Below, one piece after another: positions 26,410 through 45,356 of a stretch of 64,000 bases of DNA (position 1 is its first letter; every line of letters starts with the position of its first letter). Source of the DNA: an uncultured Candidatus Cloacimonadota bacterium (GTDB lineage: Bacteria > Cloacimonadota > Cloacimonadia > Cloacimonadales > TCS61); NCBI GenBank assembly GCA_964521025.1, contig CAZFPK010000001.1:92845-156844 (forward strand). Reading direction: 5' to 3'. The notes beneath the pieces were generated by a model. The model saw only the letters and a program-made list of their open reading frames with translations, made no database searches and was not told the origin of the DNA. A program made the translations under genes and the position numbers.

Positions 26410-26547
26410 GATGAAGAGTGAACCTTGAATAAGTTTATAAGATAATTCATCTCGCTGAACTTTTTCTGTAGTTTCAACTTCTAACTGTTGAAAAGGATTA
26501 ATCTCCTATGGAGATTTTTACACGAATTCCACTGGCAGAATCCGTTC

Positions 26548-29558: not shown

Positions 29559-30356
29559 TCAAGGTTTCTTCGCAACTAAAATATAACTCAATGGCAATTT
29601 CAAATCTGATTTCTGTAAATATTCATAAATCACTCCGTAATCTCTCTCATATTCATTGAATAACTTCAATTGAAATCCACTAGAAATAATTCCATTAATC
29701 AAATCGGAAACCGTATGAGAAAATTCGTAAGCCGAAGCAGAATCATATTTGGTTAAGCCGTAATAATCGATTCCATCTTTCCCGACATAAATCTCATTGT
29801 CGAAGTAATTATGTATGATTTTTACTTCTCCGTCGAATTCATTATCATACGGCAGAACATTATTGAAAGGATGGATTTCGTATATGAAGAGAATTCCGTT
29901 TTGTGTAAGAAGTTGCGATGCTTTCCGGAAATATCCATTCAAATCCGGAATCCAGGCTAATGCTCCAACTGTGATGTAAACCAGGTCGAATTTATCGTTA
30001 TATTTTTCCGGAATATCGAACACATCCGTTCTAACGAATTCACAATCGATTTCGAATTTTTTTGCTCTTTTCATCGCATCTTTTATTGCTTCATCAGAAA
30101 TATCGAAACCGACACATTTTGCTGCTCCCATTCTTTTGAGAGACATTAGTTCGACGCCGTTATTGCAGGATAAATGTGCGATATTCTTCCCTTTGATCCC
30201 AATTTTATTTAGTTCCTCCAATTCTTCATTTTTCTGAAAGATGAAATCCGGATTGGAAAACATCTTATCCCACTTATTATCCATCACTTTGCGATGTTTG
30301 GGCATTGCCTGATTCCAGGCTTTTCGATTTGCTTCGGTGTATTTTTTGGTTTCCAT
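29559..30356 (-). CDS. Class I SAM-dependent methyltransferase
   Basis: HLSCNNG, GFDIS, FDLVY..GALAWIPDL, YEIHP. Confidence 0.88.
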   Translation of the reverse strand: METKKYTEANRKAWNQAMPKHRKVMDNKWDKMFSNPDFIFQKNEELEELNKIGIKGKNIAHLSCNNGVELMSLKRMGAAKCVGFDISDEAIKDAMKRAKKFEIDCEFVRTDVFDIPEKYNDKFDLVYITVGALAWIPDLNGYFRKASQLLTQNGILFIYEIHPFNNVLPYDNEFDGEVKIIHNYFDNEIYVGKDGIDYYGLTKYDSASAYEFSHTVSDLINGIISSGFQLKLFNEYERDYGVIYEYLQKSDLKLPLSYILVAKKP

Positions 30357-30804
30357 TACTTATCCTTTTTTTCAACGAACAAAACAACCGACTAACAATC
30401 AGAATCTTGATTTTGGAGTGCATCAATTATTTTGCTGCAAAACGACGGAGTCGTTTCCCCACAGAATGCAATTCTGTGCTTCTCTGACCTTGAAAAAGTT
30501 TTTTAGTATTCACAACAAAAATCTTTGAAGGAGATTACAGAACTTTTTCAACGGTTTCTATCTAAATTTGTGAAGTCTTTGAGACTTACCAAATTTTGAA
30601 GATATAAAACTTCACAAGTTTCGGAAACTTGGTAAGTTTTCTCGAAATCGGAATTTCGAGTTACATTCCAAACCTTGAAAAAGTTTATAAGTATTCTCTT
30701 CCTGCCATACTTTTTCAATGGTTTTCCCATATCATCGATTTCCAACCATTGAAAAGGACAAATGAAAGAATTCCTCCGGTAGAATCCGTCTTCAAGGTTT
30801 TTAA
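30357..30804. repeat. Composite palindromic spacer (F-D-B-C-D-E)
   Basis: D 30488-30557, B 30565-30640, C 30641-30664, D 30672-30725, E 30744-30800. Confidence 0.85.
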
Positions 30805-32859: not shown

Positions 32860-33170
32860 ATTTTATTTTTTCCTTTTTTTTGAAATCATGAATTAACACA
32901 AATTTTCACGAATCTAAAACTTAAGTTAAGCCGGCTTTAGCAGGTCTTGACTTAAGTTGACATATTCCGCTCCCATTAATTCTCAATATATTTGTGAAGT
33001 CTCCGAGAACTTAACAAATTTTGTTTCGATCCTTGCAAAACTTCACAAGTTTTTGGAAACTTGGTAAGTTTTCTCAAAATCGGAATTTCGAGTTACTGTA
33101 TCACAATCAATCCTGATTGTGTTTTTCTCAAACAAGATTGTTTGAGTTACATTTATCCTGTTCATCCTTT
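32860..33170. repeat. Composite palindromic spacer (F-A-B-C-G)
   Basis: A 32917-32961, B 32991-33071, C 33073-33096, G 33092-33150. Confidence 0.88.
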
Positions 33171-33464
33171 TTAATCATTCACCCAATATTCCCGGCAATC
33201 TTGAGTTCTTCTCATAAATCCATAATCGACGAGTAATCTTCTAATTATGAAGATATCATCATAAAAACCGGAGACAATTTCATTCACCTCTTTTTCTGAA
33301 TATTTCCTATTCGATTCGAAATTCTCGAAAATTTTCTGTAAAACTATCACCTTTTTCTTCTCTTTATTTGGAAGTGTTTTCAATCTTCCCGAATCTTTAT
33401 CGAAATATGATTTCAACACTTTCTCTTTTGTTTTTTCATCTATCTCATATTTGTCTTTGATCAT
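33171..33464 (-). CDS. DUF2087 domain protein
   Basis: GRLKTLPNKEKKK, YSEKEVNE, IRRLLVDYGFMRR..EYW. Confidence 0.85.
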   Translation of the reverse strand: MIKDKYEIDEKTKEKVLKSYFDKDSGRLKTLPNKEKKKVIVLQKIFENFESNRKYSEKEVNEIVSGFYDDIFIIRRLLVDYGFMRRTQDCREYWVND

Positions 33465-33663
33465 TTTGTTCTCCTTTTTTTGAAACCATTAATTAACACA
33501 AATTCTCACGAATAAAACTTGAGTTAAGTCGGCTTTAGCCGATCTTGACTTAAGTTGAAGATAATCATTACTTCGTCTATCCAACCATTGCGAAGGTCAA
33601 GAGAAGCAAGAAGTCCGAAAACCATTCGCAAGGTCTTTCTCGAAATCTGAATTTCGATTTACA

Positions 33664-35352
33664 TTATATCGCAGGTCCATAAAATGATTCCCATAATTTC
33701 TTTGAAACATTGTATGAATCTTTCTCCACCCCGAATTTGCTTACATATTTGCAGATATTTTCAACATCCCGCAAAAGCAGTTCAAAGGCGTTATGATTTA
33801 CATTCGGATCTACTGCTTGAGGAAAATCGATAATATACGGCTCTTCCTTGTGATAGAGAATATTAAAAGGTGAAAGATCACCGTGCACAATATGATTTTG
33901 GAGCATCACGGAAATATTGTTCACGATTTTTTTAAAGACATTTTCCGCTTCTTGCTTATTTAAACGAACATCTTTGAGCATCGGAGCAGAATAATCATCT
34001 TCTCCGATAAAACTCATCACAACAGCATCATCCGTGCAGGCAATCGGTTCCGGCACTTTCAATCCGATGTCAAATAATGTTCCCAAAGCATCAAATTCGT
34101 TGTTCACCCAAATAGAGCGTTCCACTTGTTTCACGATTGAAGAACCTTTCTTTTTACCTCGTTCCAAGCGTTTATCCCAAATCCTGCCTTGATGGTAAAT
34201 TCCATCCTGCTTAAAATTCCGGAATTTCTTTTCCCGATACAATTTTACTGCCATATATTCACAATTCATTTCATGATGCGCCTTACAGCAGACAACAACC
34301 GCTTCTTTACCTTTTTTTACCACTCGAATTAGTTCTGTGATTATTTTTTCATCAAAGAAATCCTCGCAGGATTCTCCGTAACGCATCAAATCTGTTTTGA
34401 AAACATTTTCCACAGGCTGCAATTCATAGAATATTTTTTCCAACAAAGATATTCTTTCTTTATCGATTTCCGGAACTTGTTCAGCGTTAAATTGCTGACC
34501 AATCTCACCCATAAAATCTACACAGCAAACTGCTGTATAAAAATCCAGAACCTGAAGTTGCAGATTGGACAGGTTATATTCATCTGAAATAAAATCGATA
34601 TAATCCGTATCACTATTTTGAGAAAGTAGAGCCATTTTCGTGAGACCTAAATGAAACAATTTATCACCGAAACAGAGTTCATCTACATCTACAATTCCAT
34701 TCAACTTTCCGTTTTGGATGATTACATTTTTGGTAGTGATATCATCGAGAAAAGGAACCGACTCGATCGATGAAAAATATTCATCAAAGCGCTCCATCCT
34801 GGTGAAAAGAAACTCCACCTGTTTCAAACTGCAAACTCCGATGTCAGCGATGCGATCTCTACTTCTTTTCAGCGAATTCCTGATCACATCTTTCCACGAT
34901 TTATTTTCCTTTAGAATTTTATCTTCATAAGAAGTTGCATAACCGTAACCTTCCGCTTTGGGAAGATCTGAAACTATTTTTTGAATTTTCACGATTTCTT
35001 TCGATAGATTTTTCTTTTGCGTCCCGGTCAGTTCATCATAAACAAAATGCAGGTCTTTTCCTGCTAATCGTTCCATAATCACATACGGAAATTCGCATTC
35101 AAAATCGAAATGAAGAATTTCAGGAACAGGAGTTTTAAAATGCTTCATTTTTTTATTCCAATAAACTCCACCTTTTAATAAATTTATGGAGTTATCTCTT
35201 GCGAGACGAATTACAATTTCCTCACCGGTTTCCAATTTTACATCATAAACAAAATGACATAATCCTGCATTAAACCTGCTGATTTCAGAAACAGCAACTT
35301 GATAATGATTTTCTACAATATCTTTTGCGATTTGAATATTTGGATTTTTCAT
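33664..35352 (-). CDS. Aminoglycoside-phosphotransferase-like domain fused to RIO1-type kinase
   Basis: N-half DDITTKNV..GIVDVD; C-half KKGKEAVV, AVKLY, HGDLSPFNIL, IIDFPQAV; start placed at ATG 35352 after the RBS. Confidence 0.8.
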   Translation of the reverse strand: MKNPNIQIAKDIVENHYQVAVSEISRFNAGLCHFVYDVKLETGEEIVIRLARDNSINLLKGGVYWNKKMKHFKTPVPEILHFDFECEFPYVIMERLAGKDLHFVYDELTGTQKKNLSKEIVKIQKIVSDLPKAEGYGYATSYEDKILKENKSWKDVIRNSLKRSRDRIADIGVCSLKQVEFLFTRMERFDEYFSSIESVPFLDDITTKNVIIQNGKLNGIVDVDELCFGDKLFHLGLTKMALLSQNSDTDYIDFISDEYNLSNLQLQVLDFYTAVCCVDFMGEIGQQFNAEQVPEIDKERISLLEKIFYELQPVENVFKTDLMRYGESCEDFFDEKIITELIRVVKKGKEAVVVCCKAHHEMNCEYMAVKLYREKKFRNFKQDGIYHQGRIWDKRLERGKKKGSSIVKQVERSIWVNNEFDALGTLFDIGLKVPEPIACTDDAVVMSFIGEDDYSAPMLKDVRLNKQEAENVFKKIVNNISVMLQNHIVHGDLSPFNILYHKEEPYIIDFPQAVDPNVNHNAFELLLRDVENICKYVSKFGVEKDSYNVSKKLWESFYGPAI

Positions 35353-35576
35353 TGTTTTTTCCTTTTTTTTGAAACTACGAATTTTCACGAATCTAAAACT
35401 TGAGTTAAGTCGGCTTTAGCCGATCTTGACTTAAGTTGACATATTAGCACCTTGAAAAAGTTTCTTTCAATCCATCTTCCTATTTAACTCTTTCAAGGTT
35501 ACACATCTCCAAACTCTGAAATAGTCAAATATAAGAGAATTTGGAAGAGACTTTTTCAGAGTAATATTCAAGGTTT
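35353..35576. repeat. Composite palindromic spacer (F-A-D-H); D-H part nearly colinear with 25171-25283
   Basis: A 35396-35440, D 35449-35500, H 35512-35563. Confidence 0.85.
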
Positions 35577-37403
35577 CTATGCATTCAATATCTTCGCTTC
35601 CTGTTCTTCCATAAACTGGTTCGTGTAGAGTTTATGGTAATATCCTTTCTGGTTGAGAAGTTCGTGATGATTTCCCTGCTCGGTAATTTTTCCATCGCGG
35701 ATCACTAAAATCCTGTCTGACGAACGGATTGTGGAAAGACGGTGGGCGATGATAAAACTCGTACGATTCTCCAGAACTGTTTGGATAGCATCCTGGATTT
35801 TCTGTTCGGTTTCCGTATCCACAGACGAAGTTGCTTCATCCAGCACAAAGATTTTTGGATTCGCTAGAATCGCTCTGGCAAAGGAAATGAGTTGCTTTTC
35901 TCCGGTTGAGAGCAGACTTCCACCTTCACCGACTTCGCTGTCATATCCTTTCTCGGTTTTCTGGATAAAATCGTGTGCATTGACCAATCGAGCCGCATTT
36001 TCAACTTCCTCGTCATTTGCATCCAATCTGCCGTATTTGATGTTGTCCTTGATCGTACCGCTGAACAGATGTGGTGTCTGCAATACATAACCGAGATTGG
36101 AATGCAACCAGAGCAATGACCTTTCCCGATAATCGGTTCCGTCGATTTTGATAGAACCGGAATTCGGTTCATAAAATCGGCAGGCAAGATTTACGATTGT
36201 GCTTTTGCCGGAACCTGTTTCTCCAACGAGTGCTATTGTTTCTCCGGAATTTATTTCCAGGTTGAAATTCTCCAGCACATTTTCACCTTTTTTGTATTTG
36301 AAAGAAACATTCTCAAAGTGGATATTCCCTATTATTTTTGGCCAATTCTCTGTTTTCGAGTTAAGGATATCACCGAATTTTTCCGCAATTTCCGAACTGT
36401 CCTGAATCTCCGGTTTCTCATCGATCATCGAGAAAATCCTCTCTGCTGATGCTTGAGCATTTTGCAATTCCGCAAAGATGCGAGCCAGTTCCCGCAAAGG
36501 TTCAAAAAACTGAACTGTGTAAGATATGAAAGCGACAAGAGTTCCGTAAGTTATGGTTTGCAGGATAACGCCTTCTCCGCCTTTCCATAGTGCGAGTCCG
36601 GTTCCGATGCTGCCGAGAGTCAGAACTGCCGGCAGATACAAGGATGAGAAAATCGCTGCTTTTACGGATGAACGATACATTTTGCTCGTAAGTTGCTGGA
36701 ATTCTTTCAGATTCGCTTCTTCCCGAACTAATGTTTTGGTTGTCTTTGCTCCGGAGATTCCTTCATTGAACGACCCAGTAATGCGCGAATTCGTCTTCCG
36801 AACTTTCCGATAAGTTTTCAGTATTTTCTTCTGGAAATAAATGCTGATCACAACCAAAACCGGAACAACGATCAAAACCATCAACGCCAGTTTCCAATTC
36901 ATAATCAACATCACGATACTGATCCCGATCATCAGCGAAAATCCCCAAACCAGATCGACCAAACCCCAGGCGATGGTTTCTCCCAAACGCTGTCCGTCGG
37001 AAGTCATTCTTGCCATCAGCCAGCCGACCGGAGTTTTATCATAGTAATTGAAGGAAAGTTCCTGCAGATGCTGGAATCCTGCTTTCCTGATGTCGTAGGT
37101 CAATCCCATCTCAACTCTTCCTGCCAAAGCAATGAAGAAATAGATATTTATCGATTGAATGACGATCAATCCGAAATAGATCAGACCAAATCTCACAAGT
37201 CCGTCAGTACTTGCCGGAACAACAAAATGATCGATCGCATACTTACTCATCAGCGGGAAAATGACATCTACTCCAGCCAATCCCAGCATAAAAACTGCGA
37301 TGATGATCATTTGTTTTTTATAGGAAATTGTGAATTGAAAGAGTTTTTTCCACAACTTCCAATCTAAATTTTTATTATATTCCTGTTCTTCAAAAATAGA
37401 CAT
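35577..37403 (-). CDS. ABC exporter TMD-NBD half (consensus subunit of a heterodimer)
   Basis: TM helices; GETGSGKS, LSTGEKQ, LDEATS, AHRLST. Confidence 0.92.
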   Translation of the reverse strand: MSIFEEQEYNKNLDWKLWKKLFQFTISYKKQMIIIAVFMLGLAGVDVIFPLMSKYAIDHFVVPASTDGLVRFGLIYFGLIVIQSINIYFFIALAGRVEMGLTYDIRKAGFQHLQELSFNYYDKTPVGWLMARMTSDGQRLGETIAWGLVDLVWGFSLMIGISIVMLIMNWKLALMVLIVVPVLVVISIYFQKKILKTYRKVRKTNSRITGSFNEGISGAKTTKTLVREEANLKEFQQLTSKMYRSSVKAAIFSSLYLPAVLTLGSIGTGLALWKGGEGVILQTITYGTLVAFISYTVQFFEPLRELARIFAELQNAQASAERIFSMIDEKPEIQDSSEIAEKFGDILNSKTENWPKIIGNIHFENVSFKYKKGENVLENFNLEINSGETIALVGETGSGKSTIVNLACRFYEPNSGSIKIDGTDYRERSLLWLHSNLGYVLQTPHLFSGTIKDNIKYGRLDANDEEVENAARLVNAHDFIQKTEKGYDSEVGEGGSLLSTGEKQLISFARAILANPKIFVLDEATSSVDTETEQKIQDAIQTVLENRTSFIIAHRLSTIRSSDRILVIRDGKITEQGNHHELLNQKGYYHKLYTNQFMEEQEAKILNA

Positions 37404-37449
37404 AATTTACCTCTTAATTAGCAACGAACAAAACTAACAAAACGAACAA

Positions 37450-38145
37450 TTATTTACCACCGAGAACACCGAGATACACCGAGTTTAAATCTCCTCTTGA
37501 GAGGAGTCCGACTTTAGTCGGGAGGTGTGTTTCTTCATCATTGGATATTCCTTGTTGGATATTGAATATTTTTCTCTCCCAATCCCTTCTCAAGAGTGAA
37601 TAAATCAATTGATCATATCTAATTTTCCCATTCTCAAACCAATAATGTGCTCTCATTCTGCCATCGATTTGAAAACCAAAATGATCGAGTAGTTTTATCG
37701 AGCCGATATTTCCCTCATTTGTTTCAGCATAAATCTTATTCAAACTCATTTTCTTATAATTGAACATTGTATCCAAAAATAATGAAAGTAGTATCTTTCC
37801 ATAACCCTTTCTACGATTTTCTTTTGGGAAGTAATAACTGATCTCGATGCTATAATTTCGATGATTTCGATTTTGATAACTGGCGAAACCTAAATATTCT
37901 CCTGTTTTATTTTCTTTCAGAAAAGCGTAATTTATTTCTGAATACAATCGATTCTGCATTCTTTGATAGAATTTCTCAAAATGTTCTTCTTTGAAATCTT
38001 CTGTGTGCTTTTCCGGAACCCAGGCACAACTCATTTTATCTTTTTCATCTTCACTGATCTGCCATTTGTAATACTGCTTCAGAAGTTTTCTATCTTCTTT
38101 ATTTACAAATATTAGTGAATAAGATTTCTTTATGTCTTTTGTCAT
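37450..38145 (-). CDS. RimJ/RimL-type GNAT acetyltransferase with repeat-derived C-terminal tail
   Basis: RRKGYG, NIGSIKLL..FGFQIDGRMR; last ~40 aa run through repeat DNA. Confidence 0.82.
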   Translation of the reverse strand: MTKDIKKSYSLIFVNKEDRKLLKQYYKWQISEDEKDKMSCAWVPEKHTEDFKEEHFEKFYQRMQNRLYSEINYAFLKENKTGEYLGFASYQNRNHRNYSIEISYYFPKENRRKGYGKILLSLFLDTMFNYKKMSLNKIYAETNEGNIGSIKLLDHFGFQIDGRMRAHYWFENGKIRYDQLIYSLLRRDWERKIFNIQQGISNDEETHLPTKVGLLSRGDLNSVYLGVLGGK

Positions 38146-38219
38146 TTGTTCTCCATTTCTTTTCTTCCTTTTTCCTTCATTATTGGAAATTCCTTGTTGG
38201 ATATTGGATATTCATCTTT

Positions 38220-40085
38220 TCAAACAATCTTCTTCTCCTTCTTCAACACATCCGCTTCCATCTGCTTTGGCTCGATCTCGAATTCCAGTTCTTCCTCCAA
38301 CTGATTCTGCAGATTCCAGATACGCTGATAAAGTCCAGTTTGATTAACAAGTTCCTGATGATTTCCCTGCTGGATAAGTTTACCGTTTTCCAGAACCAGA
38401 ATCAAATCTGCTTCTGCGAGTGTATTGATGCGATGCGAGATGATGAAAGTCGTTGCCTTATTATTTCGCTTTTTGAGTTCTTTCCTGATCGCAGCATCTG
38501 TTTCCGTATCGACAGCACTCAATGAATCATCAAAAATCAGAATCGGACTGTCATTTACCAGAGTTCGAGCAATGGCGATTCGCTGCTTTTGTCCGCCGGA
38601 AAGAGTTACACCCCGCTCTCCAACTGCAGTTTCATATCCATTCTCAAAATCTTCGATAACTTCATGCACGGAGGCAATACGAGCGGCTTCAAAGACTTCC
38701 GCTTCGATCACATCGTGCTTTGCCAATCCGATATTTTCTTGAATCGTTTTGGAGAATAGGAAGGGCTCCTGAAGAACAATTCCCACTTTTTTCCTGATCA
38801 CTTTCTTATCGATATTTCTCAATTCAATTCCATCGATCTTGATCGAACCTTTTTGATTCTCATACAATCTCGGTAAAAGATGAACGAGAGACGATTTTCC
38901 AGATCCTGTCGGACCGAGAACAGCAACTGTCTGTCCTTTTTTGATATGAAAAGAAACATCATCCAGAACCGGTTTTCCTTCATCGTATTCGAAAGATACA
39001 TTTTGGAATTCGATCTCGCCTTCGATGGTTGGAGTCGGATCGCTGTCATTTCCAAATTCTTCGATCGGTGCATCGAGTATTTCCTGAATCCTGCCAATCG
39101 AAACAAGCGCTTTTCCCATATCGGTCAGAACTCGTCCCATTTGACGAATCGGCCAGAGCAACATTCCTACATAAGAAGTGAAAGCGAGTAAAGTTCCCAA
39201 CGAGATGATTCCTTTAGCAGCCCAGAAAGTTCCGATAACCAGAACTCCACCGATCTGGATCAAACAGAAAAAATCGGAAACCGACCAATACCAGGCGAGA
39301 AGCCGGATGAGATTGTAAGTAAGGTTGCGATACTCTACATTTCGCTCATCGAATTTCCCGATTTCATAAGACTGTCTGGCAAATGCTCGCACCACGCGCA
39401 CTCCGGTTAGATTTTCCTGTAGAACCGTTGATAATCTTCCTTCCGACTCATCCGAAAGTTTGAATGCTTTCTTTACTTTGATGAAGAAAACCACCGTGAA
39501 ACAGAAAATGAGAGGAATGAGCGACAACGAAACCAGCGTCATTTTCACATTCATCGGCAACATAAAGGAAAGTGCAAAAGCTATCATAAAGAGTGCTCTT
39601 CCAACCTCCACAAACTGCATTGCCAGAAATCTGCGAATCGTTTCCACATCGGAAGTACAGCGCTGGATCAAATCTCCGGTTTTCGCTTTCTGATGATAAT
39701 CATACGGAAGTTTCTGGAGATGATCGTAAACTTTCTCCCTGATCTTCCTGGCAATAGATTCCGCAGAAACAGCCGACCACTTTCCTTTCCAATACAGGAA
39801 AACTCCTCTGATCAATGTTAATCCAATGAGGAGTAAACTGCAGATCCAGAGGTTTTTTGCCAGTAGACTCTGATTTCCAAAAAAATTTAGCAAACCTTCG
39901 ATATACAGCTGCAACCAACCGAAAACAGCCATCTCTTTCCCACCGATGATCGAATCAACAGTGATCCTTAAAATCATTGGCCAAATGAAGTTAATGAAAG
40001 TAGCAAAACCAATGGAAAGGATGGACAGCACATAAAGCGTTCTGTTTCCTTTCATAAAATTCCATAATATTTTTATTTTATCCAT
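38220..40085 (-). CDS. ABC exporter TMD-NBD half (degenerate-site subunit of a heterodimer)
   Basis: GPTGSGKS, LSGGQKQR, Walker B FDDSLSAVD with Asp in place of the catalytic Glu. Confidence 0.92.
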   Translation of the reverse strand: MDKIKILWNFMKGNRTLYVLSILSIGFATFINFIWPMILRITVDSIIGGKEMAVFGWLQLYIEGLLNFFGNQSLLAKNLWICSLLLIGLTLIRGVFLYWKGKWSAVSAESIARKIREKVYDHLQKLPYDYHQKAKTGDLIQRCTSDVETIRRFLAMQFVEVGRALFMIAFALSFMLPMNVKMTLVSLSLIPLIFCFTVVFFIKVKKAFKLSDESEGRLSTVLQENLTGVRVVRAFARQSYEIGKFDERNVEYRNLTYNLIRLLAWYWSVSDFFCLIQIGGVLVIGTFWAAKGIISLGTLLAFTSYVGMLLWPIRQMGRVLTDMGKALVSIGRIQEILDAPIEEFGNDSDPTPTIEGEIEFQNVSFEYDEGKPVLDDVSFHIKKGQTVAVLGPTGSGKSSLVHLLPRLYENQKGSIKIDGIELRNIDKKVIRKKVGIVLQEPFLFSKTIQENIGLAKHDVIEAEVFEAARIASVHEVIEDFENGYETAVGERGVTLSGGQKQRIAIARTLVNDSPILIFDDSLSAVDTETDAAIRKELKKRNNKATTFIISHRINTLAEADLILVLENGKLIQQGNHQELVNQTGLYQRIWNLQNQLEEELEFEIEPKQMEADVLKKEKKIV

Positions 40086-40301
40086 TATTAATTTCCTTTA
40101 ACCGCGAATGAACACAAATTTTCGCGAATTCACCTTGAAAAAGTTTATAAGTCTTTTCTTCTTGCTGAACTTTTTCAACGGTTTTCATTTGAATTTGTGA
40201 AGTCTCCAAAGACTTAACAAATTTTATAAAGCTATTAGTCTAAAAAACTTCACATCCGTCAGTTGCCGGATTGTTAGTTTTCTCAAAATCGGAATTTCGA
40301 G

Positions 40302-40445
40302 TTACTTTCGTTTCAATTCCTCTTTCAAGAATTTCCGTACAGTCTTTCTTCCCTTCTGCTTAAACCAGCGTTTCGATTTTGTATGAGCACCATCCGGATG
40401 CGCCGGTCTTTTCCGGTTATATAATTTTTGAATTCCTGTTTTCAT
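40302..40445 (-). CDS. 47-aa highly basic small protein, not in ORF track
   Basis: MKTGIQKLYNRKRPAHPDGAHTKSKRWFKQKGRKTVRKFLKEELKRK; bracketed by the same spacer modules as neighbouring genes. Confidence 0.6.
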   Translation of the reverse strand: MKTGIQKLYNRKRPAHPDGAHTKSKRWFKQKGRKTVRKFLKEELKRK

Positions 40446-40608
40446 AATTTATTTCCCACAATTTAGCTCCGAACAAAACCAACAAAACGAACAATCTAAA
40501 ACTTGAGTTAAGTCGGCTTTGTTCGAATCTTGACTTAAGTTGAACTCTTTACCCTCGAAATCGGAATTTCGAGTTACATTCCAGTCCCATCATATGATTT
40601 TCCAAAAT

Positions 40609-40648
40609 AAAAAAAGACTCGTGAGAGCCAGAGCCCACTCGAGTCTTT
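40609..40648 (-). terminator. Attenuator terminator T2
   Basis: Minus strand AAAGACTCGAGTGGGCTCTGGCTCTCACGAGTCTTTTTTT. Confidence 0.8.
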
Positions 40649-40670
40649 GAAAAAATTTTGCTTTAGATAC

Positions 40671-40711
40671 AAAAATAGTGGGATTAGCCCTGGTATCGAC
40701 CAATCCCACTA
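40671..40711 (-). terminator. Attenuator terminator T1
   Basis: Minus strand TAGTGGGATTGGTC-GATACCAG-GGCTAATCCCACTA-TTTTT. Confidence 0.8.
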
Positions 40712-40777
40712 AAATATATTTATCTCATTTTATTGAGCGTTTTTCCTGATATTTTAATAAATTACGGGATCGGTCAA

Positions 40778-40822
40778 CTAAATGACAGAACCGCCTGCAG
40801 GTAATCTTAATAATCTATTCAT
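40778..40822 (-). CDS. Leader peptide MNRLLRLPAGGSVI
   Basis: AAGGAGG RBS 6 nt upstream of ATG; stop overlaps a 13-nt sequence complementary to T1. Confidence 0.72.
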   Translation of the reverse strand: MNRLLRLPAGGSVI

Positions 40823-41108
40823 CCAAATCCTCCTTCGTTTATTTTGCATTTTGCAATGAAAGATTACTACTCTATTTTTTAAGGAATATATACTGTCAAG
40901 AATTTTTACTTAATTTTTCGAAAATATTTCTAATTCTTTAGTTGTAATTTGTTTAAAAATAGACAATTATCCAGATGAAATTTTATTTTATGAAATGAAA
41001 CAAAAAGATTTCTTCTAATAATAATGAATGAAATGGATAAAATTATTTCTCTTTACAATAAAATTGTATCTTTAAGTTTTGCAGAGAATTTTTTTCGGAG
41101 GATAGTAG

Positions 41109-41729
41109 ATGAAAAAAATCGATTTTAAAAAAGAGTTAAAAGAACTTTATAATCCATCTGCAAAAAAGGTTGTTGTCATAGATGTTCCGATTTTGAATTT
41201 CCTGATGATCGATGGACAGGGAAACCCGAATACTGCGAAAGAATACCAGGATGCTCTGGAAACACTTTACGGAGTTACCTTCACGATCAAAATGCTGCCC
41301 AAAAAAGGAGAAACTCCGGAAGGATATTTCGAATATGTTGTTCCACCTTTGGAAGGTCTCTGGTGGTCGGATGAAAAGAATAACCTTGATCTGGAAGATA
41401 AAAATAATTGGAAATGGACAGCCATGATCATGCAGCCGGAATTTGTAACGCAGGAATTGGTTGAATTTGCAATCCAACTTCTCCAAAAGAAAAAGGATAT
41501 TCCTGCTTTATCGAAAATGCGATTTGAAAGTTATAATGAAGGTTTATCCGCCCAGATAATGCATATTGGACCTTATGCGGAAGAAGCTACGACTATTGAT
41601 ATGATTTATCATTTCATCAAAGAAAAGGGATACAAATTTAATGGAAAACATCACGAGATCTATTTGAGCGATCCGCGACGAAGTGCTCCGGAAAAATTGA
41701 AAACAGTTATCAGACAACCGATCAAGTAA
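41109..41729 (+). CDS. GyrI-like small-molecule binding protein
   Basis: PPLEGLWW, MHIGPY, HHEIYLSDPRR..KLKTVIRQP. Confidence 0.88.
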   Translation: MKKIDFKKELKELYNPSAKKVVVIDVPILNFLMIDGQGNPNTAKEYQDALETLYGVTFTIKMLPKKGETPEGYFEYVVPPLEGLWWSDEKNNLDLEDKNNWKWTAMIMQPEFVTQELVEFAIQLLQKKKDIPALSKMRFESYNEGLSAQIMHIGPYAEEATTIDMIYHFIKEKGYKFNGKHHEIYLSDPRRSAPEKLKTVIRQPIK

Positions 41730-41804
41730 AACAATCAAGTAAAATGTCTTACAAAAAAACAATATAGCAAATTATACTACGAATAAAAGTAAGAAAGAGA
41801 ATTT

Positions 41805-44800
41805 ATGTTTGAAAAAAAATGGCAAAACTTAATTGAAGATGATTTAGACAAATTATCAGAAATAATAAATCCTGTAAAAGAAAAAACAATTAAACTCGAA
41901 GAAGGAGAAAACAGGATTGTTTCGATCTTCTTCCTCGATATAAAAGGTTTTACCGCGATGAGTGAAAAACTTCAATCCGAACAGGTGAAAAGAATAATCG
42001 ATAGGATCTTTAAAGTTTTCACTAATGTTATTCTCAAGTATGGTGGTTATATCGATAAATATGAAGGTGATTTGATCATGGCTCATTTCGGCAGTAAAAT
42101 AACTTCCGAAACCGATACTGAAAGAGCCATAAAAAGCGGATTGGAAATTCTAAACAAAATAAAGCAAATAAATGAGATGCTGACTCAAAGAAAGATAGAA
42201 CTAAATGTCAGGATCGGAATAAATACAGGAATGGTAACCACAGGCAAAATCGGTCTTCAAAGATCAGGAGATTTTACTGTTTATGGTGATGCGGTCAATC
42301 TTGCTGCCAGAATGGAAAAAAATGCTCCTTTGAACTCTATTTTGATTTCGGAAGAAACAAAGAAACTGGTTACCGATATATTCCGGTTTGAATCACTCGG
42401 TAAATTAAAATTAAAAGGTATTTCTTTTCCTGTCGATGTTTATAAAGTTCTGGGAGTTGTAACTAAAAAAATCGAGAGATGGGAACGGTTCAAGGTTGTG
42501 CATAGACCTGTATATGTGGGAAGAGATAAAGAATTAAAGAAAATTGAAAAAGTTTATGTAAAAGCAAAATCTCAAATTGGAAAAATCGACGCTGATTATA
42601 AACCTATAGTGATCGGCTTGCGTAGTCCTGCAGGACTGGGGAAATCCCGTCTTATTTATGAATTCTCTAACAAGATAAAAGATAAATACAAGTTAAAAAC
42701 CATGAAAAACATTAAAATAAGTGGTTATACAAAATCGTATGCCCAAGCACCTTATACAATTTGGACATCTTTTATCAAAAACTACATCGGCATTAATGAA
42801 ACCGATACAAATGAGATTATTAGAGAGAAATTCGAATATTTTTTTTCTGAAATTTCTCCGGAACTTAAAAGAAATGAAAACCAGGTTTTAGAAAAAGCAA
42901 AACCTATATTGGGATTTATCCTCGGTCTGACCTATAAAGATATTAGATTGAAAAATCCCGATCCAAAATCTATTCAAACAGAAATTTTCCTGGCAATTCG
43001 ATACTTCCTGGAGGCAATTACTAAAATAGCGAATAGACAAAATCATCCATTGATAATCGTCCTTGAAGACCTTCATTGGCTCGATGAATCATCCCGTTAT
43101 GCGTTGAAGACCATCTTATCATCTCTGAATGTGGAAGAAAAAAGAAATAATAAAGCAAACAAAATTTTGTTTCTCCTGCTTGCTTATCGAAATGAATTTG
43201 AACTCATTAGTGAATTTAAGTTTAGAACAGAATTTTATGAATTCCAATTAGAACCTTTAACAACTGATAATTCCGATCAAATGATAAATTCTATGCTCGG
43301 GAAAATAAACATCCCGCAAAAGATCAAATCCGAACTTCTATCAAAATCCGAAGGAAATCCATTTTATATCGAAGAATGGATTCACTTTCTCCTGGATGAA
43401 GATATAATTGAAAAAAAAGACAATATGTGGCGGCTGAAAAAGGAAATTACCGCTGTTCCGGATACTTTGCATAAACTTATTTTATCTCGTATCGACAGAA
43501 TGGAAACTCCTTTAAAAATTCTTCTGCAAAAAGCAAGTGTTATAGGATATTCATTTCTTAAATCCATCATGGAAGCAATGGAAATAAGACTGGGAAACAA
43601 GCAACCGATAGAACCAAAACTTACTCAACTAATTCACATGGACTGGCTTAAAAGAGAAGAAGAAGTCGATGAAACAGATACTAAATACTTATTCAAGCAT
43701 ATTATTGCCTGCGATGTCGTGTATCAGACTATTCTCATTTATAATAAGAAAATCCTGCACAAGATCATAGCAGAATATGTGGAAGAAAAATTCAGGGATA
43801 ACAAAGATTATTATGCTTTTCTGGCAAACCATTATGAAAAAGCAGAAGTAAAAGATAAATCAAGGGAATATCTGAAAAAGGCAGGAGACTTTGCCAGAGA
43901 TCATTATCAAAATGAATTGGCAGTCGTATTTTACGACCAACTATTGCAGAGCATTCACGATTTATCAAACCAAAAAGAATTAGAAATCGACATTCTTCTT
44001 AAAAAGGGTAACATCTTTCGATTTATAGGAAAGTGGAAAGAAGCAGAAGATATTTATCAAAATGCTCTTCATTTAGCGACCAAAATTAAGGATAAAAAAA
44101 GAATTGCAACTTTAACTAATTCTGTAGGTTGGCAAAATTATTTAAAAGGCAATTATGAAAAAGCAATGGAGTGTTTGGAAAAACAATTAAAAATCAGCGA
44201 AGAAATTGAAGATAAAAGCGGAATTTCAATAGCATTTGGAAATATGGGGGTTGTGTTTAAGGAATTAGGTAATTATGAAAGAGCAATGGAATGTCATAGG
44301 AAAAAATTAGAAATTTGTGAGGAACTCGAGGATAAAAGCGGAATGTCGATTGCATTTGGGAATATAGGTCTTGTTTATTGGAATCAGGGAAATTATGAAA
44401 GAGCAATGGAATTTCATGAGAAAAAATTAAAAATAAAAGAAGAACTCGCAGATAAAAAAGGAATCTCGATAGCAGTTGGGAATATGGGAATTGTTTATGA
44501 AAATCAAGGGAATCACAAAAAAGCGATGGAATGCTTTGAAAAAAGACTGAAAATCAGTGAAGAACTCGGCGATAAAAGCGGCATTTCAATAGCAGTCGGA
44601 AATATGGGAATTGTTTATAAGGAACAGGGTAATTATGAAAAAGCAATGGAGTGTTATCAAAAAGATTTAATTATATCGGAAGAATTGGGAAACAAAAAAG
44701 GAATTTCCAGAGCAGTCGGTAATATGGGACTTGTTCATACGAATCTTGGTAATTATACAAAAGCTATGGAATGTTATCAAAAAGATTTAGTAATTTTGGA

Positions 44801-45356
44801 GGAACTCGGAAATAAGAAGGGGATATCAATAGTCGTAGGTAATATGGGAAATGTTTATCGTTTTCAAGGAAATTTTGGAAAAGCGATAGATTGTTTTGAG
44901 AAAGTGATTGAAATCGACAGTGAAATCGGATTTAAACCTCACCTCCCTTATGTTTTATCTGAAAAAGCAAATTGTCTCTATGAACTGAAAAAATATGAAA
45001 AGGCGAATGAAATAAATGAAGAATGTCTGAAAATTGCTGAAGAGATAAAAGACGAAGAGTATATTTTTGCTGCTGAAATTCTAAAAGTGAAAATTGAGTT
45101 TAAAATAATAAAAAGATATAAGGTGCGGATAAAAAAGTGTATCGAATCGCTTGAAAAAATGCTTGCTGATACAAAGAAAGAAGAACAAATTGCTGCTCTG
45201 AATTATGAATTAGCAATTATGAACAAGCAATTAGGAGGAAAAGAAGTAACTGAAAAGTATAAAAAAGATGCAATAAAATCCTACAAAAAGCTCTATAAGA
45301 AAACACCGAAAATAGATTATAAAAACAAGTATGAAGAATTGGAGAAACTAAAATAA
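41805..45356 (+). CDS. Class III adenylate/guanylate cyclase + AAA ATPase + TPR (STAND-like)
   Basis: FLDIKGFT, DKYEGD, GDAVNLAARME; PAGLGKS, LEDLHWLD, GNPFYIEE; 40-aa TPR repeats. Confidence 0.9.
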   Translation: MFEKKWQNLIEDDLDKLSEIINPVKEKTIKLEEGENRIVSIFFLDIKGFTAMSEKLQSEQVKRIIDRIFKVFTNVILKYGGYIDKYEGDLIMAHFGSKITSETDTERAIKSGLEILNKIKQINEMLTQRKIELNVRIGINTGMVTTGKIGLQRSGDFTVYGDAVNLAARMEKNAPLNSILISEETKKLVTDIFRFESLGKLKLKGISFPVDVYKVLGVVTKKIERWERFKVVHRPVYVGRDKELKKIEKVYVKAKSQIGKIDADYKPIVIGLRSPAGLGKSRLIYEFSNKIKDKYKLKTMKNIKISGYTKSYAQAPYTIWTSFIKNYIGINETDTNEIIREKFEYFFSEISPELKRNENQVLEKAKPILGFILGLTYKDIRLKNPDPKSIQTEIFLAIRYFLEAITKIANRQNHPLIIVLEDLHWLDESSRYALKTILSSLNVEEKRNNKANKILFLLLAYRNEFELISEFKFRTEFYEFQLEPLTTDNSDQMINSMLGKINIPQKIKSELLSKSEGNPFYIEEWIHFLLDEDIIEKKDNMWRLKKEITAVPDTLHKLILSRIDRMETPLKILLQKASVIGYSFLKSIMEAMEIRLGNKQPIEPKLTQLIHMDWLKREEEVDETDTKYLFKHIIACDVVYQTILIYNKKILHKIIAEYVEEKFRDNKDYYAFLANHYEKAEVKDKSREYLKKAGDFARDHYQNELAVVFYDQLLQSIHDLSNQKELEIDILLKKGNIFRFIGKWKEAEDIYQNALHLATKIKDKKRIATLTNSVGWQNYLKGNYEKAMECLEKQLKISEEIEDKSGISIAFGNMGVVFKELGNYERAMECHRKKLEICEELEDKSGMSIAFGNIGLVYWNQGNYERAMEFHEKKLKIKEELADKKGISIAVGNMGIVYENQGNHKKAMECFEKRLKISEELGDKSGISIAVGNMGIVYKEQGNYEKAMECYQKDLIISEELGNKKGISRAVGNMGLVHTNLGNYTKAMECYQKDLVILEELGNKKGISIVVGNMGNVYRFQGNFGKAIDCFEKVIEIDSEIGFKPHLPYVLSEKANCLYELKKYEKANEINEECLKIAEEIKDEEYIFAAEILKVKIEFKIIKRYKVRIKKCIESLEKMLADTKKEEQIAALNYELAIMNKQLGGKEVTEKYKKDAIKSYKKLYKKTPKIDYKNKYEELEKLK

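What the first reader, a model, noticed from the sequence alone, without database searches (positions are those of the whole stretch)
40609..40835. Leader-peptide attenuator with two tandem terminators switchable in relay
Seen (minus strand): AAGGAGG RBS and uORF MNRLLRLPAGGSVI. Starting at the last base of its stop is GUUGACCGAUCCC (40766-40778), which makes 13 contiguous pairs (3 G-U) with GGGAUUGGUCGAU (40695-40707), the 5' arm of terminator T1. That pairing frees T1's loop/3' arm CCAGGGC-UAAUC-CCACU (40677-40693), which is complementary (7+5 bp) to AGUGG-GCUCUGG (40628-40639) in terminator T2. Inference: a ribosome reaching the stop masks the antiterminator so both terminators form; early stalling opens both in cascade. 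Known parallels: ribosome-mediated attenuation of B. subtilis bmrBCD and vmlR by translation inhibitors. I do not know of this peptide or this double relay being described.
Basis: partly seen in the sequence, partly recalled or inferred. Interest (0 to 1): 0.85.

Follow-up and report, generated by a model that had tools for sequence, protein, structure and literature searches.

The report
Leader-peptide attenuator with two terminators
A tiny upstream reading frame and two back-to-back transcription stop signals form a conserved RNA switch in front of an exporter operon in uncultured Cloacimonadota bacteria, probably switching the operon on when ribosomes are slowed.

Summary
On the minus strand lie an AAGGAGG site, a 14-codon uORF, a 13-bp antiterminator pairing (AT1) that starts at the last base of the stop codon, and two intrinsic terminators (T1, T2).

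The layout is conserved. It occurs once per genome in 43 of 62 genomes of one Cloacimonadota family (17 of 22 genera). In 38 of 42 distinct leaders the same ABC exporter gene lies downstream, and in 6 its start codon is only 17-31 nt past T2. No Rfam family matches, and no paper describing it was found.

- **AT1 is strongly supported.** At most 5% of shuffles pair as well in 39 of 42 leaders. Pairing is lineage-specific, and the strand always sits 0-9 nt after the stop.
- **The T1-to-T2 relay (AT2) is only partly supported.** It is long and lineage-specific in about 13 of 42 leaders. In the window it is marginal: 21 of 300 shuffles pair as well. It is weak in the largest clade.
- **The switch must be kinetic.** Equilibrium folds favour T1 under almost every ribosome mask.
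- **The signal is unknown.** Sister leaders precede extra HflX and RsgA paralogues. A look-alike leader in another family precedes an ABC-F gene. This points to ribosome stress.

It is a new variant of a known kind of regulator.

The parts
40894..40899 (-). -35-like TTGACA of the leader promoter, with an A/T-rich stretch upstream. The -10 element was not identified with confidence.
   Evidence: Read. A TTGAC lies 57-83 nt upstream of the uORF ATG in 35 of 35 leaders examined. The consensus scan did not list it.
40844..40856 (-). Small hairpin near the 5' end (UUGCA-AAA-UGCAA), upstream of the ribosome-binding site.
   Evidence: Folds. Relatives have a hairpin at the same place with different stem letters (seen by eye; not counted formally).
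40829..40835 (-). Shine-Dalgarno sequence AAGGAGG, 6 nt before the uORF ATG.
   Evidence: A GGAG-type site precedes the uORF in 41 of 42 leaders; the exception is L012.
40778..40822 (-). uORF of 14 codons plus TAG, encoding MNRLLRLPAGGSVI. It contains the R-x-P-x-G motif of the main clade.
   Evidence: P-x-G occurs in 25 of the first 35 leaders. Its codons vary synonymously (Pro CCG 13, CCT 10, CCA 2; Gly GGC 15, GGT 10), and R stands two residues before the P in 22 of 25.
40766..40778 (-). 5' strand of antiterminator AT1 (GUUGACCGAUCCC). It starts at the last base of the stop codon.
   Evidence: In the relatives the strand starts 0-9 nt after the first base of the stop.
40676..40711 (-). Terminator T1, a 14-bp hairpin followed by UUUUUGU (40675-40669). 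Its 5' arm 40707-40695 is the 3' strand of AT1. Its loop and 3' arm 40693-40677 form the 5' strand of AT2.
   Evidence: The T1 tail has at least 5 U in 8 nt in 39 of 42 leaders.
40656..40674 (-). Linker hairpin that pairs the T1 U-tract (UUUUGU) with GCAAAA.
   Evidence: Fold. A comparable linker hairpin is predicted in most relatives.
40609..40648 (-). Terminator T2, a G+C-rich hairpin at about 40648-40613 followed by seven U (40615-40609). Bases 40639-40628 (AGUGG-GCUCUGG) form the 3' strand of AT2.
   Evidence: Of the 12 T2 stem pairs in the RNAalifold consensus, 9 have at least one sequence changed on both sides (10 of all 23 pairs, T1 included).
40554..40577 (-). Repeated hairpin element GTAACTCGAAATTCCGATTTCGAG. 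A second copy lies at 40282-40305. The two copies flank the small basic ORF.
40302..40445 (-). ORF for a 47-residue basic protein of unknown function, lying between T2 and the exporter gene.
   Evidence: 9 homologues; the one that carries an organism name is Candidatus Cloacimonetes. Also (present after T2 in L011 and L089).
38220..40085 (-). First regulated gene: an ABCB-type exporter half-transporter of 621 residues.
   Evidence: Pfam ABC_membrane plus ABC_tran. Among solved bacterial transporters, the best matches are Sav1866 and the heterodimer subunits TM_0288, TmrB and BmrD/YheH. No NCBIfam model reaches its cut-off.
37450..38145 (-). GNAT-family acetyltransferase gene between the two exporter genes.
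   Evidence: weak matches only, all below cut-off.
35577..37403 (-). Second ABCB-type exporter half-transporter, 608 residues.

Best explanation
This is a ribosome-dependent (leader-peptide) transcription attenuator. It controls an operon for a heterodimeric ABCB-type exporter.

Transcription starts at a conserved promoter. A strongly initiated uORF of 14 codons is translated while RNA polymerase moves on. The segment that starts at the stop codon (AT1 5' strand) is complementary to the 5' arm of terminator T1.
- OFF state: if a ribosome reaches the stop codon in time, its footprint covers that segment. T1 then folds, and T2 behind it, and transcription ends.
- ON state: if the ribosome is held up earlier, the segment is free. 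It captures the T1 5' arm before the T1 3' arm is made, so T1 cannot form.

The most likely stall site is the conserved R-x-P-x-G codons, 27 nt upstream of the AT1 core. No stall was observed.

The freed T1 3' arm can then pair with the 5' arm of T2 (AT2). This would pass the antitermination on to the second terminator.

What is shown (by sequence, comparison and folding):
- the parts and their conservation;
- the AT1 complementarity, its lineage specificity and its fixed position next to the stop;
- the lack of room for another promoter in several relatives.

What is inferred:
- the direction of the switch and that it is kinetic;
- the stall site;
- that AT2 works in this genome (my odds about 0.55);
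- that the signal is ribosome stress, such as ribosome-targeting compounds (my odds about 0.55).
For: **Architecture and conservation**
- The parts are present at the stated coordinates. Terminator-like sites number 5, against 0.6 expected. The leader fold has z = -3.99.
- A covariance model of T1 plus T2 finds one copy per genome in 43 of 62 genomes of the window's family. That covers 27 of the 32 high-quality genomes and 17 of 22 genera. Across the phylum it finds 28 of 151 genomes, almost all of them in that family (25 of 30).
- Record titles name Candidatus Cloacimonadota for 15 of 20 pattern hits.
- 42 distinct leaders were collected. All have a uORF of 7-15 codons, and 41 of 42 have a GGAG-type ribosome-binding site.

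**AT1**
- The duplex between the 30 nt after the stop and the T1 5' arm is matched by at most 5% of shuffles in 39 of 42 leaders, and by at most 1% in 31.
- Pairing starts 0-7 nt after the first base of the stop in 34 of the first 35 leaders. The core starts 3-9 nt after it in 41 leaders.
- In 16 representatives, cognate pairs average -17.1 kcal/mol against -11.5 for non-cognate pairs. 0 of 20000 permutations reach the cognate mean.
- On the 28-row main-clade alignment, 84.5% of cells are paired, against 23.5-57.0% when the partner is slid by 1-3 columns.
- Divergent lineages changed both strands together. Examples are GAUCAGAAA/UUUCUGAUC in L070 and AACCGG/CCGGUU in L074.
- In the nascent RNA that ends at the T1 loop, AT1 is in the minimum-energy fold in 17 of 18 representatives. 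With a terminating-ribosome mask only 8 of 18 keep 6 or more AT1 pairs.

**Peptide**
- P-x-G occurs in 25 of the first 35 leaders with synonymous codon variation.
- The distance from the Pro codon to the AT1 core is 24-27 nt, and 27 nt in 19 leaders. It is also 27 nt in the window, although there the stop lies one codon later.

**Target genes**
- The orthologous ABC gene follows within 750 nt in 37 of 42 leaders, and after an inserted RsgA-family gene in one more.
- Its start codon is only 17-31 nt after the T2 U-tract in 6 leaders. There, transcription can only come through T1 and T2.

**Hint at the signal**
- One sister leader precedes a second HflX paralogue. It scores 409 bits against TIGR03156, above the cut-off, and the genome has two HflX genes.
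- Two sister leaders precede RsgA-family paralogues.
- A leader of like architecture in another family precedes a ribosomal-protection-type ABC-F gene (NF000355, 470 bits, cut-off 380).
- In Listeria the extra HflX paralogue hflXr is controlled by a 14-residue leader peptide through attenuation (PMC6310831, passages read).
- bmrCD of B. subtilis is controlled the same way (PMC4191407, passages read).

**AT2**
- Cognate pairs average -15.3 against -10.1 kcal/mol, with 0 of 20000 permutations reaching the cognate mean.
- At most 5% of shuffles pair as well in 13 of 42 leaders.
- The three leaders whose T1 has a degenerate U-tract (L075, L092, L095) have 9-12 AT2 pairs.
Against: - There is no expression evidence of any kind. 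No RNA run holding the stretch was listed.
- Equilibrium folding does not predict a switch. With the transcript complete through T1, T1 is the minimum-energy state in nearly every leader at nearly every ribosome position. AT1 wins in 0-6 of 24-41 leaders per position, and in 1 of 41 with no ribosome. In the window AT1 wins only with the P site at codons 9-10. The mechanism therefore rests on an unobserved order of co-transcriptional folding.
- Within the main clade the formal covariation of AT1 is weak. Four pairs changed on both sides, a count that 297 of 500 shuffles reach. The covariation score is 0.225 against 0.201, reached by 6 of 500 shuffles. Most changes are one-sided G-C/G-U and A-U/G-U exchanges, because the T1 arm is almost invariant.
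- The pair table is fitted to the pairing and leans towards it.
- AT2 is not better than shuffles in 29 of 42 leaders. In the window 21 of 300 shuffles pair as well.
- My count of AT2 pairs in nascent folds (32 of 42) is uninformative. Shuffled arms reach 5 or more pairs in 76% of trials.
- In 9 of the 10 leaders of the RTPQGSSV clade the nascent fold has 0-2 AT2 pairs (L034 has 6).
- The peptide is not conserved across the whole family. By eye, 13 of 42 leaders lack P-x-G and carry other sequences (FTGRLRNN, MIRLRTFTNGNVR, KF[KR]L...).
- The model finds no copy in 19 of 62 family genomes, including the same-genus relative G001, which is 96% complete.
- Related genomes are not independent, so all counts overstate the support.
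Confidence: 0.8

Rival explanations
1. Attenuator with a single regulated terminator. The uORF and AT1 control T1 only. T2 is an unregulated, partly leaky second terminator that lowers basal expression. The T1-T2 complementarity is incidental, a C-rich arm meeting a G-rich arm.
For: AT2 is no better than shuffles in 29 of 42 leaders and marginal in the window, where 21 of 300 shuffles pair as well. Shuffled T1 3' arms pair with the T2 5' arm in 76% of nascent folds. Nine of the 10 RTPQGSSV-clade leaders show 0-2 AT2 pairs. With both terminators transcribed, T2 stays folded in every masked fold of the window.
Against: AT2 helices of 9-12 bp with quite different sequences occur in L069, L071-L076, L091 and L094, where at most 1-3% of shuffles pair as well. 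L011 changed T1 5' arm, T1 3' arm and T2 5' arm together: GCGGG, CCCGC, GCGGG. Three leaders whose T1 has a degenerate U-tract keep strong AT2 pairing. In those leaders the uORF could reach the only terminator, T2, only through the relay.
Confidence: 0.3
2. Classical amino-acid attenuator. Ribosome stalling reports shortage of a charged tRNA (for example Pro, Gly or Arg), as in the trp and his leaders.
For: The geometry is the same: a uORF followed by alternative hairpins and a terminator. Pro, Gly and Arg codons are conserved in the main clade.
Against: There are no runs of one codon; each conserved residue occurs once or twice. Other clades carry unrelated peptides. The regulated genes are exporters and GTPases, not biosynthetic or tRNA-charging genes.
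Confidence: 0.05
3. The strongly conserved T1 region is a ligand- or protein-binding RNA (a riboswitch or a target of a binding protein). The uORF is incidental or only a spacer.
For: The T1 5' arm and the sequence after T1 (GGUGGGAUUGGU ... AUCCCACYAUUUUUGUAUC) are far more conserved than a plain terminator needs to be.
Against: No Rfam family matches even at E up to 10. The conservation is explained by each arm having to pair with two partners. T1 is a simple hairpin with a variable loop and no conserved internal loop or junction. The uORF, its ribosome-binding site and its end next to AT1 are conserved in 41-42 of 42 leaders.
Confidence: 0.05
4. The uORF is an independent micropeptide gene with its own double terminator. 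The exporter operon is transcribed from its own promoter.
For: In the window about 520 nt, including a small ORF, separate T2 from the exporter gene. A weak promoter-like match lies at 40091-40064.
Against: In 6 relatives the exporter start codon is only 17-31 nt after the T2 U-tract. The AT1 complementarity has no role in this model. The peptide sequence is not conserved across the family.
Confidence: 0.03

Closest known systems
bmrB leader of the bmrBCD operon, Bacillus subtilis (PMC4191407; passages read)
   Same: It is a ribosome-mediated transcription attenuator upstream of a heterodimeric ABCB-type exporter. BmrD/YheH is among the solved relatives of the window's protein. It has terminator, antiterminator and anti-antiterminator structures and is induced by ribosome-targeting drugs.
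   Different: bmrB is a 53-codon ORF with a single terminator inside the coding region. Here the uORF has 14 codons and both terminators lie downstream of the stop. In the paper, blocking bmrB translation lowered expression. Here nascent-RNA folds predict read-through without translation. I saw no sequence likeness and did not test for it. The phyla differ.
rli80 leader of hflXr (lmo0762), Listeria monocytogenes (PMC6310831; passages read)
   Same: A 14-residue leader peptide, an antiterminator and a terminator control an extra HflX paralogue. One sister leader of this family (L093/L097) also precedes a second HflX gene. An RLR motif is present in some sister peptides (L069, L071-L074).
   Different: There is one terminator. 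The window's peptide has no RLR, only RLLRL. The regulated gene in the window is an exporter.
ermK/ermD-type macrolide leaders. The leader peptide MTHSMRLRFPTLNQ is quoted in PMC4335068 (passages read). The two terminators of the ermK leader are recalled from Kwak et al. 1991 and Choi et al. 1997, neither of which I read; PMC208150 was not held.
   Same: A short leader peptide with transcription attenuation. From memory, two rho-independent terminators stand in one leader.
   Different: I cannot say whether a T1 3' arm to T2 5' arm relay exists there. The regulated gene is an rRNA methylase, and the peptide differs.
his and trp operon leaders of enterobacteria (recalled textbook knowledge; trp is described in the discussion of PMC4191407)
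   Same: A chain of alternative hairpins (A:B, C:D, E:F against B:C, D:E in his) passes the ribosome's position along the leader to a distal terminator. This is the same logic as the AT1-T1-AT2-T2 chain.
   Different: In those leaders only the last hairpin is a terminator. Stalling is at runs of regulatory codons. Without translation the result is termination, whereas here the nascent folds predict the opposite.
msrDL (PMC10314930; passages read) and toiL (PMC12121999; abstract read)
   Same: Very short uORFs that sense ribosome-targeting drugs. toiL responds to several drug classes by stalling at different positions, which is a model for a general ribosome-stress sensor.
   Different: msrDL stalls at its stop codon and the ribosome itself blocks the terminator. 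toiL acts through occlusion of the ribosome-binding site and Rho. Neither has tandem terminators.

Membership tests
Ribosome-dependent (leader-peptide) transcription attenuators | A short ORF with its own ribosome-binding site in the 5' leader, on the same transcript as the regulated gene | tested here: met
   AAGGAGG lies 6 nt before the ATG. A uORF with a GGAG-type site is present in 41 of 42 leaders. A conserved TTGAC lies upstream in 35 of 35. Translation itself was not observed.
Ribosome-dependent (leader-peptide) transcription attenuators | An intrinsic terminator between the uORF and the regulated gene | tested here: met
   T1 and T2 are hairpins with U-tracts. Of the 23 consensus pairs of T1 plus T2, 10 have at least one sequence changed on both sides; 9 of these are among the 12 T2 pairs and 1 is in the inner T1 helix. 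The T1 tail is U-rich in 39 of 42 leaders.
Ribosome-dependent (leader-peptide) transcription attenuators | A mutually exclusive antiterminator placed so that the ribosome's position decides between the two folds | tested here: met
   AT1 is matched by at most 5% of shuffles in 39 of 42 leaders. Cognate pairs are stronger than non-cognate ones. The strand starts 0-9 nt after the stop. A terminating-ribosome mask removes most AT1 pairs. Equilibrium folds still favour T1.
Ribosome-dependent (leader-peptide) transcription attenuators | Read-through that changes with translation of the uORF in vivo or in vitro | not testable with these tools
   No RNA run holding the stretch was listed.
bmrB-type leader of bmrCD | A leader ORF of about 53 codons that contains the terminator within its coding region | tested here: not met
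   The uORF has 14 codons, and T1 and T2 begin 66 nt or more after its stop. bmrB is as described in PMC4191407. The window's leader works like it but is not a member.
Macrolide-sensing leader peptides with R/K-x-R/K (RLR) motif | An RLR or +x+ tripeptide at the stall site | tested here: not met
   The window's peptide MNRLLRLPAGGSVI has no +x+ tripeptide. RLR is present in sister leaders L069 and L071-L074, and K-N-R or K-S-R in some main-clade peptides. The motif definition is taken from PMC6310831.
Any Rfam 15 family | A match to a curated covariance model | tested here: not met
   No match overlaps 40600-40900 even at E up to 10.
Amino-acid (trp/his-type) attenuators | Tandem or clustered codons for the regulating amino acid in the leader peptide | tested here: not met
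   The peptides have no codon runs.
Heterodimeric ABCB-type exporters (TM287/288, TmrAB, BmrCD) | Two adjacent half-transporter genes, each with an ABC_membrane and an ABC_tran domain | tested here: met
   Pfam matches on both genes. The best heterodimer-subunit matches among solved structures are TM_0288, TmrB and YheH. No NCBIfam equivalog cut-off is reached. I did not examine whether one ATP site is degenerate. The substrate is unknown.

The most novel reading that the evidence does not exclude
The leader is a ribosome-stress sensor specific to this family of Cloacimonadota, with two unusual properties.
1. Its default state without translation is ON. Termination requires a ribosome parked at the stop codon, so any drop in translation of the uORF, whatever the cause, opens both terminators in cascade.
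2. R-x-P-x-G is a previously undescribed nascent-peptide arrest motif that tunes the sensor to particular compounds.

The same sensor has been recruited in front of an exporter, an HflX paralogue and RsgA paralogues. This would define a translation-stress (intrinsic resistance) regulon in an uncultured phylum.
Probability: 0.25. Interest if true: 0.75.

Novelty: new variant of a known kind. Interest (0 to 1): 0.62.

Why it matters
Leader-peptide attenuators that sense ribosome-targeting compounds are known mainly from Firmicutes and from mobile resistance genes. This one is conserved at the family level in an uncultured phylum, and neither Rfam nor the papers I could search contain it.

- In part of the family, one uORF appears to command two successive intrinsic terminators through a chain of alternative pairings. 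That design gives very low basal read-through with a single sensor.
- Because sister leaders also precede extra HflX and RsgA genes, the leader can serve as a marker for candidate translation-stress or intrinsic-resistance genes in genomes that cannot be cultured.
- The conserved R-x-P-x-G peptide is a concrete candidate for toeprinting and structural work on nascent-chain arrest.
- The 42 natural variants already provide a set of compensatory changes for designing mutants.

Tried and rejected
- **Rfam.** A search with permissive filters over 37000-44000 found nothing in the leader.
- **Nascent-fold test of AT2.** The count of AT2 pairs in the fold from the T1 3' half to the T2 loop looked impressive: 16 of 18 representatives, then 32 of 42 leaders. 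The control killed it. Shuffled arms give 5 or more pairs in 76% of trials. I do not use that count as evidence.
- **Equilibrium folds with ribosome masks.** I folded each of 41 leaders with a mask at every P-site position. T1 is the minimum-energy state almost everywhere, so no stall site can be read from thermodynamics. In the window, AT1 wins only at P-site codons 9-10, and AT2 never displaces T2.
- **Column-wise pair counting for AT2.** I abandoned it because MAFFT puts the T2 5' arms of different clades in different registers. I used register-free duplex energies instead.
- **Column-wise counting of AT1.** On the main clade this showed mainly one-sided changes.
- **L076, from another family.** It has a strong AT2, but its AT1 is not better than chance (-7.0 kcal/mol, 51 of 300 shuffles). 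I treat it as a look-alike, not a member.
- **Weak model hits.** On inspection, L077-L079 are ordinary gene-end terminators or lack a uORF.
- **RNA evidence.** No RNA holder was listed.
- **Papers.** Searches for Cloacimon* with leader peptide, tandem terminators, two terminators and related terms found no description of this element. The ermK papers could not be read, so the statement about its two terminators is from memory. Supplementary files were not requested. Table S3 of PMC6310831, which lists leader peptides, might bear on the peptide comparison.
- **Not used:** Structure prediction, fold search, complex prediction and the protein-atlas search. No claim here needs them.
Full report
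**1. The observation**

- AAGGAGG lies at 40835-40829, 6 nt before the ATG at 40822.
- The uORF ends at TAG 40780-40778 and encodes MNRLLRLPAGGSVI.
- GUUGACCGAUCCC (40778-40766) pairs with GGGAUUGGUCGAU (40707-40695) over 13 contiguous pairs, three of them G-U.
- T1 is the hairpin 40711-40676 followed by UUUUUGU.
- T2 is the hairpin at about 40648-40613 followed by seven U.
- The proposed second pairing holds: CCACU/AGUGG (5 bp) plus CCAGGGC/GCUCUGG (7 bp, one G-U).

Against chance:
- The consensus scan finds 5 terminator-like sites in 1.3 kb, against 0.6 +/- 0.9 in shuffles.
- The 261-nt leader folds with z = -3.99.
- None of 300 shuffles of the post-stop segment pairs with the T1 5' arm as well as the real one.
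- The second pairing is only marginal on this sequence alone: 21 of 300 shuffles are as good.

**2. Surroundings**

Downstream on the same strand lie these genes:
- an ABCB-type half-transporter (40085-38220);
- a GNAT acetyltransferase (38145-37450);
- a second half-transporter (37403-35577).

Among solved bacterial transporters the nearest are Sav1866 and the heterodimer subunits TM_0288, TmrB and BmrD/YheH. No NCBIfam equivalog reaches its cut-off, so the substrate is unknown.

About 520 nt separate T2 from the first exporter gene. They hold a 47-residue basic ORF flanked by two copies of a 24-nt hairpin repeat. No Rfam family matches the leader even at E up to 10.

**3. Relatives**

- A DNA search of 61 related genomes first showed that the T1 region is conserved across genera. 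The flanks showed that the whole architecture is conserved.
- Record titles place the hits in Candidatus Cloacimonadota: 15 of 20 titles, with the rest named Cloacimonadales, Candidatus Tenebribacter, 'uncultured bacterium' or, once, Armatimonadota.
- A covariance model of T1 plus T2 finds the element in 28 of 151 genomes sampled across the phylum, almost all of them in the window's family (25 of 30).
- In the family it is found in 43 of 62 genomes. That covers 27 of the 32 high-quality genomes and 17 of 22 genera, with one copy per genome. It was not found in 19 family genomes, including the same-genus G001.
- I collected 42 distinct leaders. All have a uORF of 7-15 codons, and 41 have a GGAG-type ribosome-binding site. 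In the 35 examined, a TTGAC lies 57-83 nt upstream of the ATG.
- The orthologous ABC gene follows within 750 nt in 37 leaders, and behind an inserted RsgA-family gene in one more.
- In six leaders the ABC start codon lies 17-31 nt past the T2 U-tract. This leaves no room for a separate promoter, so the exporter has to be transcribed through T1 and T2. This is a cis-regulatory leader.

**4. The first antiterminator (AT1)**

- In 39 of 42 leaders, at most 5% of shuffles of the 30 nt after the stop pair with the T1 5' arm as well as the real sequence. In 31 leaders it is at most 1%.
- Pairing begins 0-7 nt after the first base of the stop in 34 of the first 35 leaders. The core begins 3-9 nt after it.
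- Among 16 representatives, cognate strand pairs average -17.1 kcal/mol against -11.5 for non-cognate pairs, and 0 of 20000 permutations reach the cognate mean.
- Divergent lineages changed both strands together, for example in L070, L071-L074, L090 and L094.
- Within the main clade the T1 arm is nearly invariant, so the changes are mostly one-sided. There, 84.5% of cells are paired, against 23.5-57.0% when the partner is slid. But only four pairs show two-sided changes, which 297 of 500 shuffles also reach. The covariation score is reached by 6 of 500 shuffles.
- The genomes are related, so all these figures overstate independence.

**5. How the ribosome would decide**

- In the nascent RNA that ends at the T1 loop, AT1 is in the minimum-energy fold in 17 of 18 representatives, even with no ribosome. 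Masking up to 12 nt past the stop, as a terminating ribosome would, leaves 6 or more AT1 pairs in only 8 of 18.
- Once T1 is complete, it is the minimum-energy state in nearly all leaders whatever the mask. In the window AT1 wins only with the P site at codons 9-10.
- The switch, if real, is therefore kinetic, as in other attenuators. AT1 must form before the T1 3' arm is transcribed, and a ribosome at the stop prevents that.
- This model predicts that abolishing uORF translation gives read-through. That is the opposite of what is reported for bmrB and rli80 (PMC4191407; PMC6310831). It is an inference from folds only.

**6. The peptide**

- P-x-G occurs in 25 of the first 35 leaders, and by eye in four of the seven added later.
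- An R stands two residues before the P in 22 of 25. The Pro and Gly codons vary synonymously (Pro CCG 13, CCT 10, CCA 2; Gly GGC 15, GGT 10).
- The Pro codon lies 24-27 nt before the AT1 core, and 27 nt in 19 leaders. It is also 27 nt in the window, although there the stop is one codon later. This spacing fits a stall around P-x-G that would leave AT1 just clear of the ribosome.
- Other clades carry different peptides (FTGRLRNN, MIRLRTFTNGNVR, KF[KR]L...), some of them with the RLR motif known from macrolide-sensing leaders (PMC6310831; PMC4335068).
- The sensor may therefore be general, with lineage-specific tuning.

**7. The relay (AT2)**

- Cognate pairs of T1 3' arm and T2 5' arm are stronger than non-cognate pairs: -15.3 against -10.1 kcal/mol, with 0 of 20000 permutations reaching the cognate mean.
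- In 13 of 42 leaders, at most 5% of shuffles pair as well.
- These include lineages with helices of 9-12 bp made of quite different sequences (L069, L071-L076, L091, L094).
- L011 changed three strands together: T1 5' arm, T1 3' arm and T2 5' arm.
- Three leaders whose T1 has a degenerate U-tract keep 9-12 AT2 pairs. In them the T1 hairpin can act only as the anti-antiterminator of T2.

Against this:
- In the main clade AT2 is a 6-7 bp match (AUCCCAC/GUGGGA) that is not better than shuffles.
- In nine of the ten RTPQGSSV-clade leaders the nascent fold has 0-2 AT2 pairs.
- In the window 7% of shuffles pair as well.
- My nascent-fold count of AT2 pairs proved uninformative once controlled.

I put the relay at about 0.55 for this genome. 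The alternative is that T2 is an unregulated damper.

**8. The signal**

Nothing here shows what stalls the ribosome. The context points to ribosome stress.
- One sister leader precedes a second HflX paralogue, in a genome with two HflX genes.
- Two sister leaders precede RsgA-family paralogues.
- A look-alike leader in another family precedes a ribosomal-protection-type ABC-F gene.
- In B. subtilis bmrCD is induced by ribosome-targeting drugs through bmrB (PMC4191407).
- toiL shows that one uORF can sense several drug classes (PMC12121999, abstract).

I put ribosome-targeting compounds, or slowed translation in general, at about 0.55.

**9. Comparison and novelty**

The element works like the bmrB, rli80 and erm/msr attenuators but is not a member of any of them.
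- The uORF is short and lies upstream of both terminators.
- There are two terminators.
- The peptide is different.
- No Rfam model matches.

The chain of alternative hairpins recalls the his leader (from memory). From memory, ermK also has two terminators; I could not read that paper. Searches of the paper library found no description of this element or of attenuators in Cloacimonadota.

My verdict is a new variant of a known kind. It is well supported as an attenuator and partly supported as a double relay. Its inducer is unknown and there is no expression evidence.

Noticed in passing
window 22921-40577, minus strand (7 sites: 22921, 28479, 30641, 33073, 33639, 40282, 40554): A 24-nt hairpin element, GTAACTCGAAATTCCGATTTCGAG, occurs 7 times in the window, all on the minus strand. 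None is expected by chance. The whole genome has 12 copies, some with compensatory stem changes. In at least two copies the TAA inside the motif is the stop codon of the preceding ORF (the 681-residue ORF ending at 22941 and the 47-residue ORF ending at 40302). At 33639 the element starts just after the stop of the preceding ORF. Similar 'GTAAC plus hairpin' units follow T2 in several relatives. It looks like a repeated intergenic hairpin that marks gene ends.
   Followed up: partly
window 40302-40445, minus strand: A 47-residue, very basic ORF (MKTGIQKLYNRKRPAHP...) lies between T2 and the exporter gene. Nine homologues were found; the one that carries an organism name is Candidatus Cloacimonetes, and none has a Pfam domain. 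The same ORF follows T2 in L011 and L089, and fragments of it in L015, L040 and L048. In the window it is bracketed by the two hairpin repeats, as if it were an inserted cassette.
   Followed up: partly
L090, L092, L094, L095 (just downstream of T2): In four lineages a different small ORF of about 24-27 codons follows T2. It has a strong ribosome-binding site and a shared core ...(K/R)(F/L)C(F/Y)(S/N)W(P/S)(F/Y)R(I/V).... It stands before the exporter gene or the RsgA-like gene, and could be a second regulatory uORF or a small membrane peptide. It has no Pfam match.
   Followed up: partly
L093/L097 (G176), L095/L096 (G010), L094 (G009): Leaders of the same family precede a second HflX paralogue; G176 has two HflX genes. 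They also precede RsgA-family GTPase paralogues, and in G010 the exporter gene follows the RsgA-like gene.
   Followed up: yes
L076/L080 (G049, another Cloacimonadota family): The layout is a 7-codon uORF (MIITAVN) and two U-tailed hairpins whose 5' arms share UUAAGGGAUCA. Then come a 24-codon ORF and a ribosomal-protection-type ABC-F gene (NF000355, 470 bits). AT2 is strong here but no convincing AT1 was found.
   Followed up: partly
L098 (G014:C164), upstream of a second HflX gene: The second HflX paralogue of G014 has a different leader. It consists of AAGGAGG, a 10-codon uORF (MTEITKRFSV) and a hairpin (UCCGGUUCC...GGGAACCGGA) with a weak U-tail. The T1+T2 model does not detect it.
   Followed up: no
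window 41109-41729 (+) and 41805-45356 (+): A 206-residue stand-alone protein with a GyrI-like small-molecule-binding domain is transcribed divergently from the leader promoter. From memory, this is the fold of the drug-binding domain of BmrR-type regulators. Next to it is a 1183-residue protein with adenylate/guanylate cyclase, AAA and TPR domains.
   Followed up: no
window 40844-40856, minus strand, and the same place in relatives: A small hairpin lies near the 5' end of the transcript. Its stem sequence differs between lineages but stays paired (UUGCA/UGCAA, UUUCA/GAAACG-type, UGUGUAAA/UUUACACA). It may be a 5' stabiliser. It was seen by eye and was not counted.
   Followed up: no
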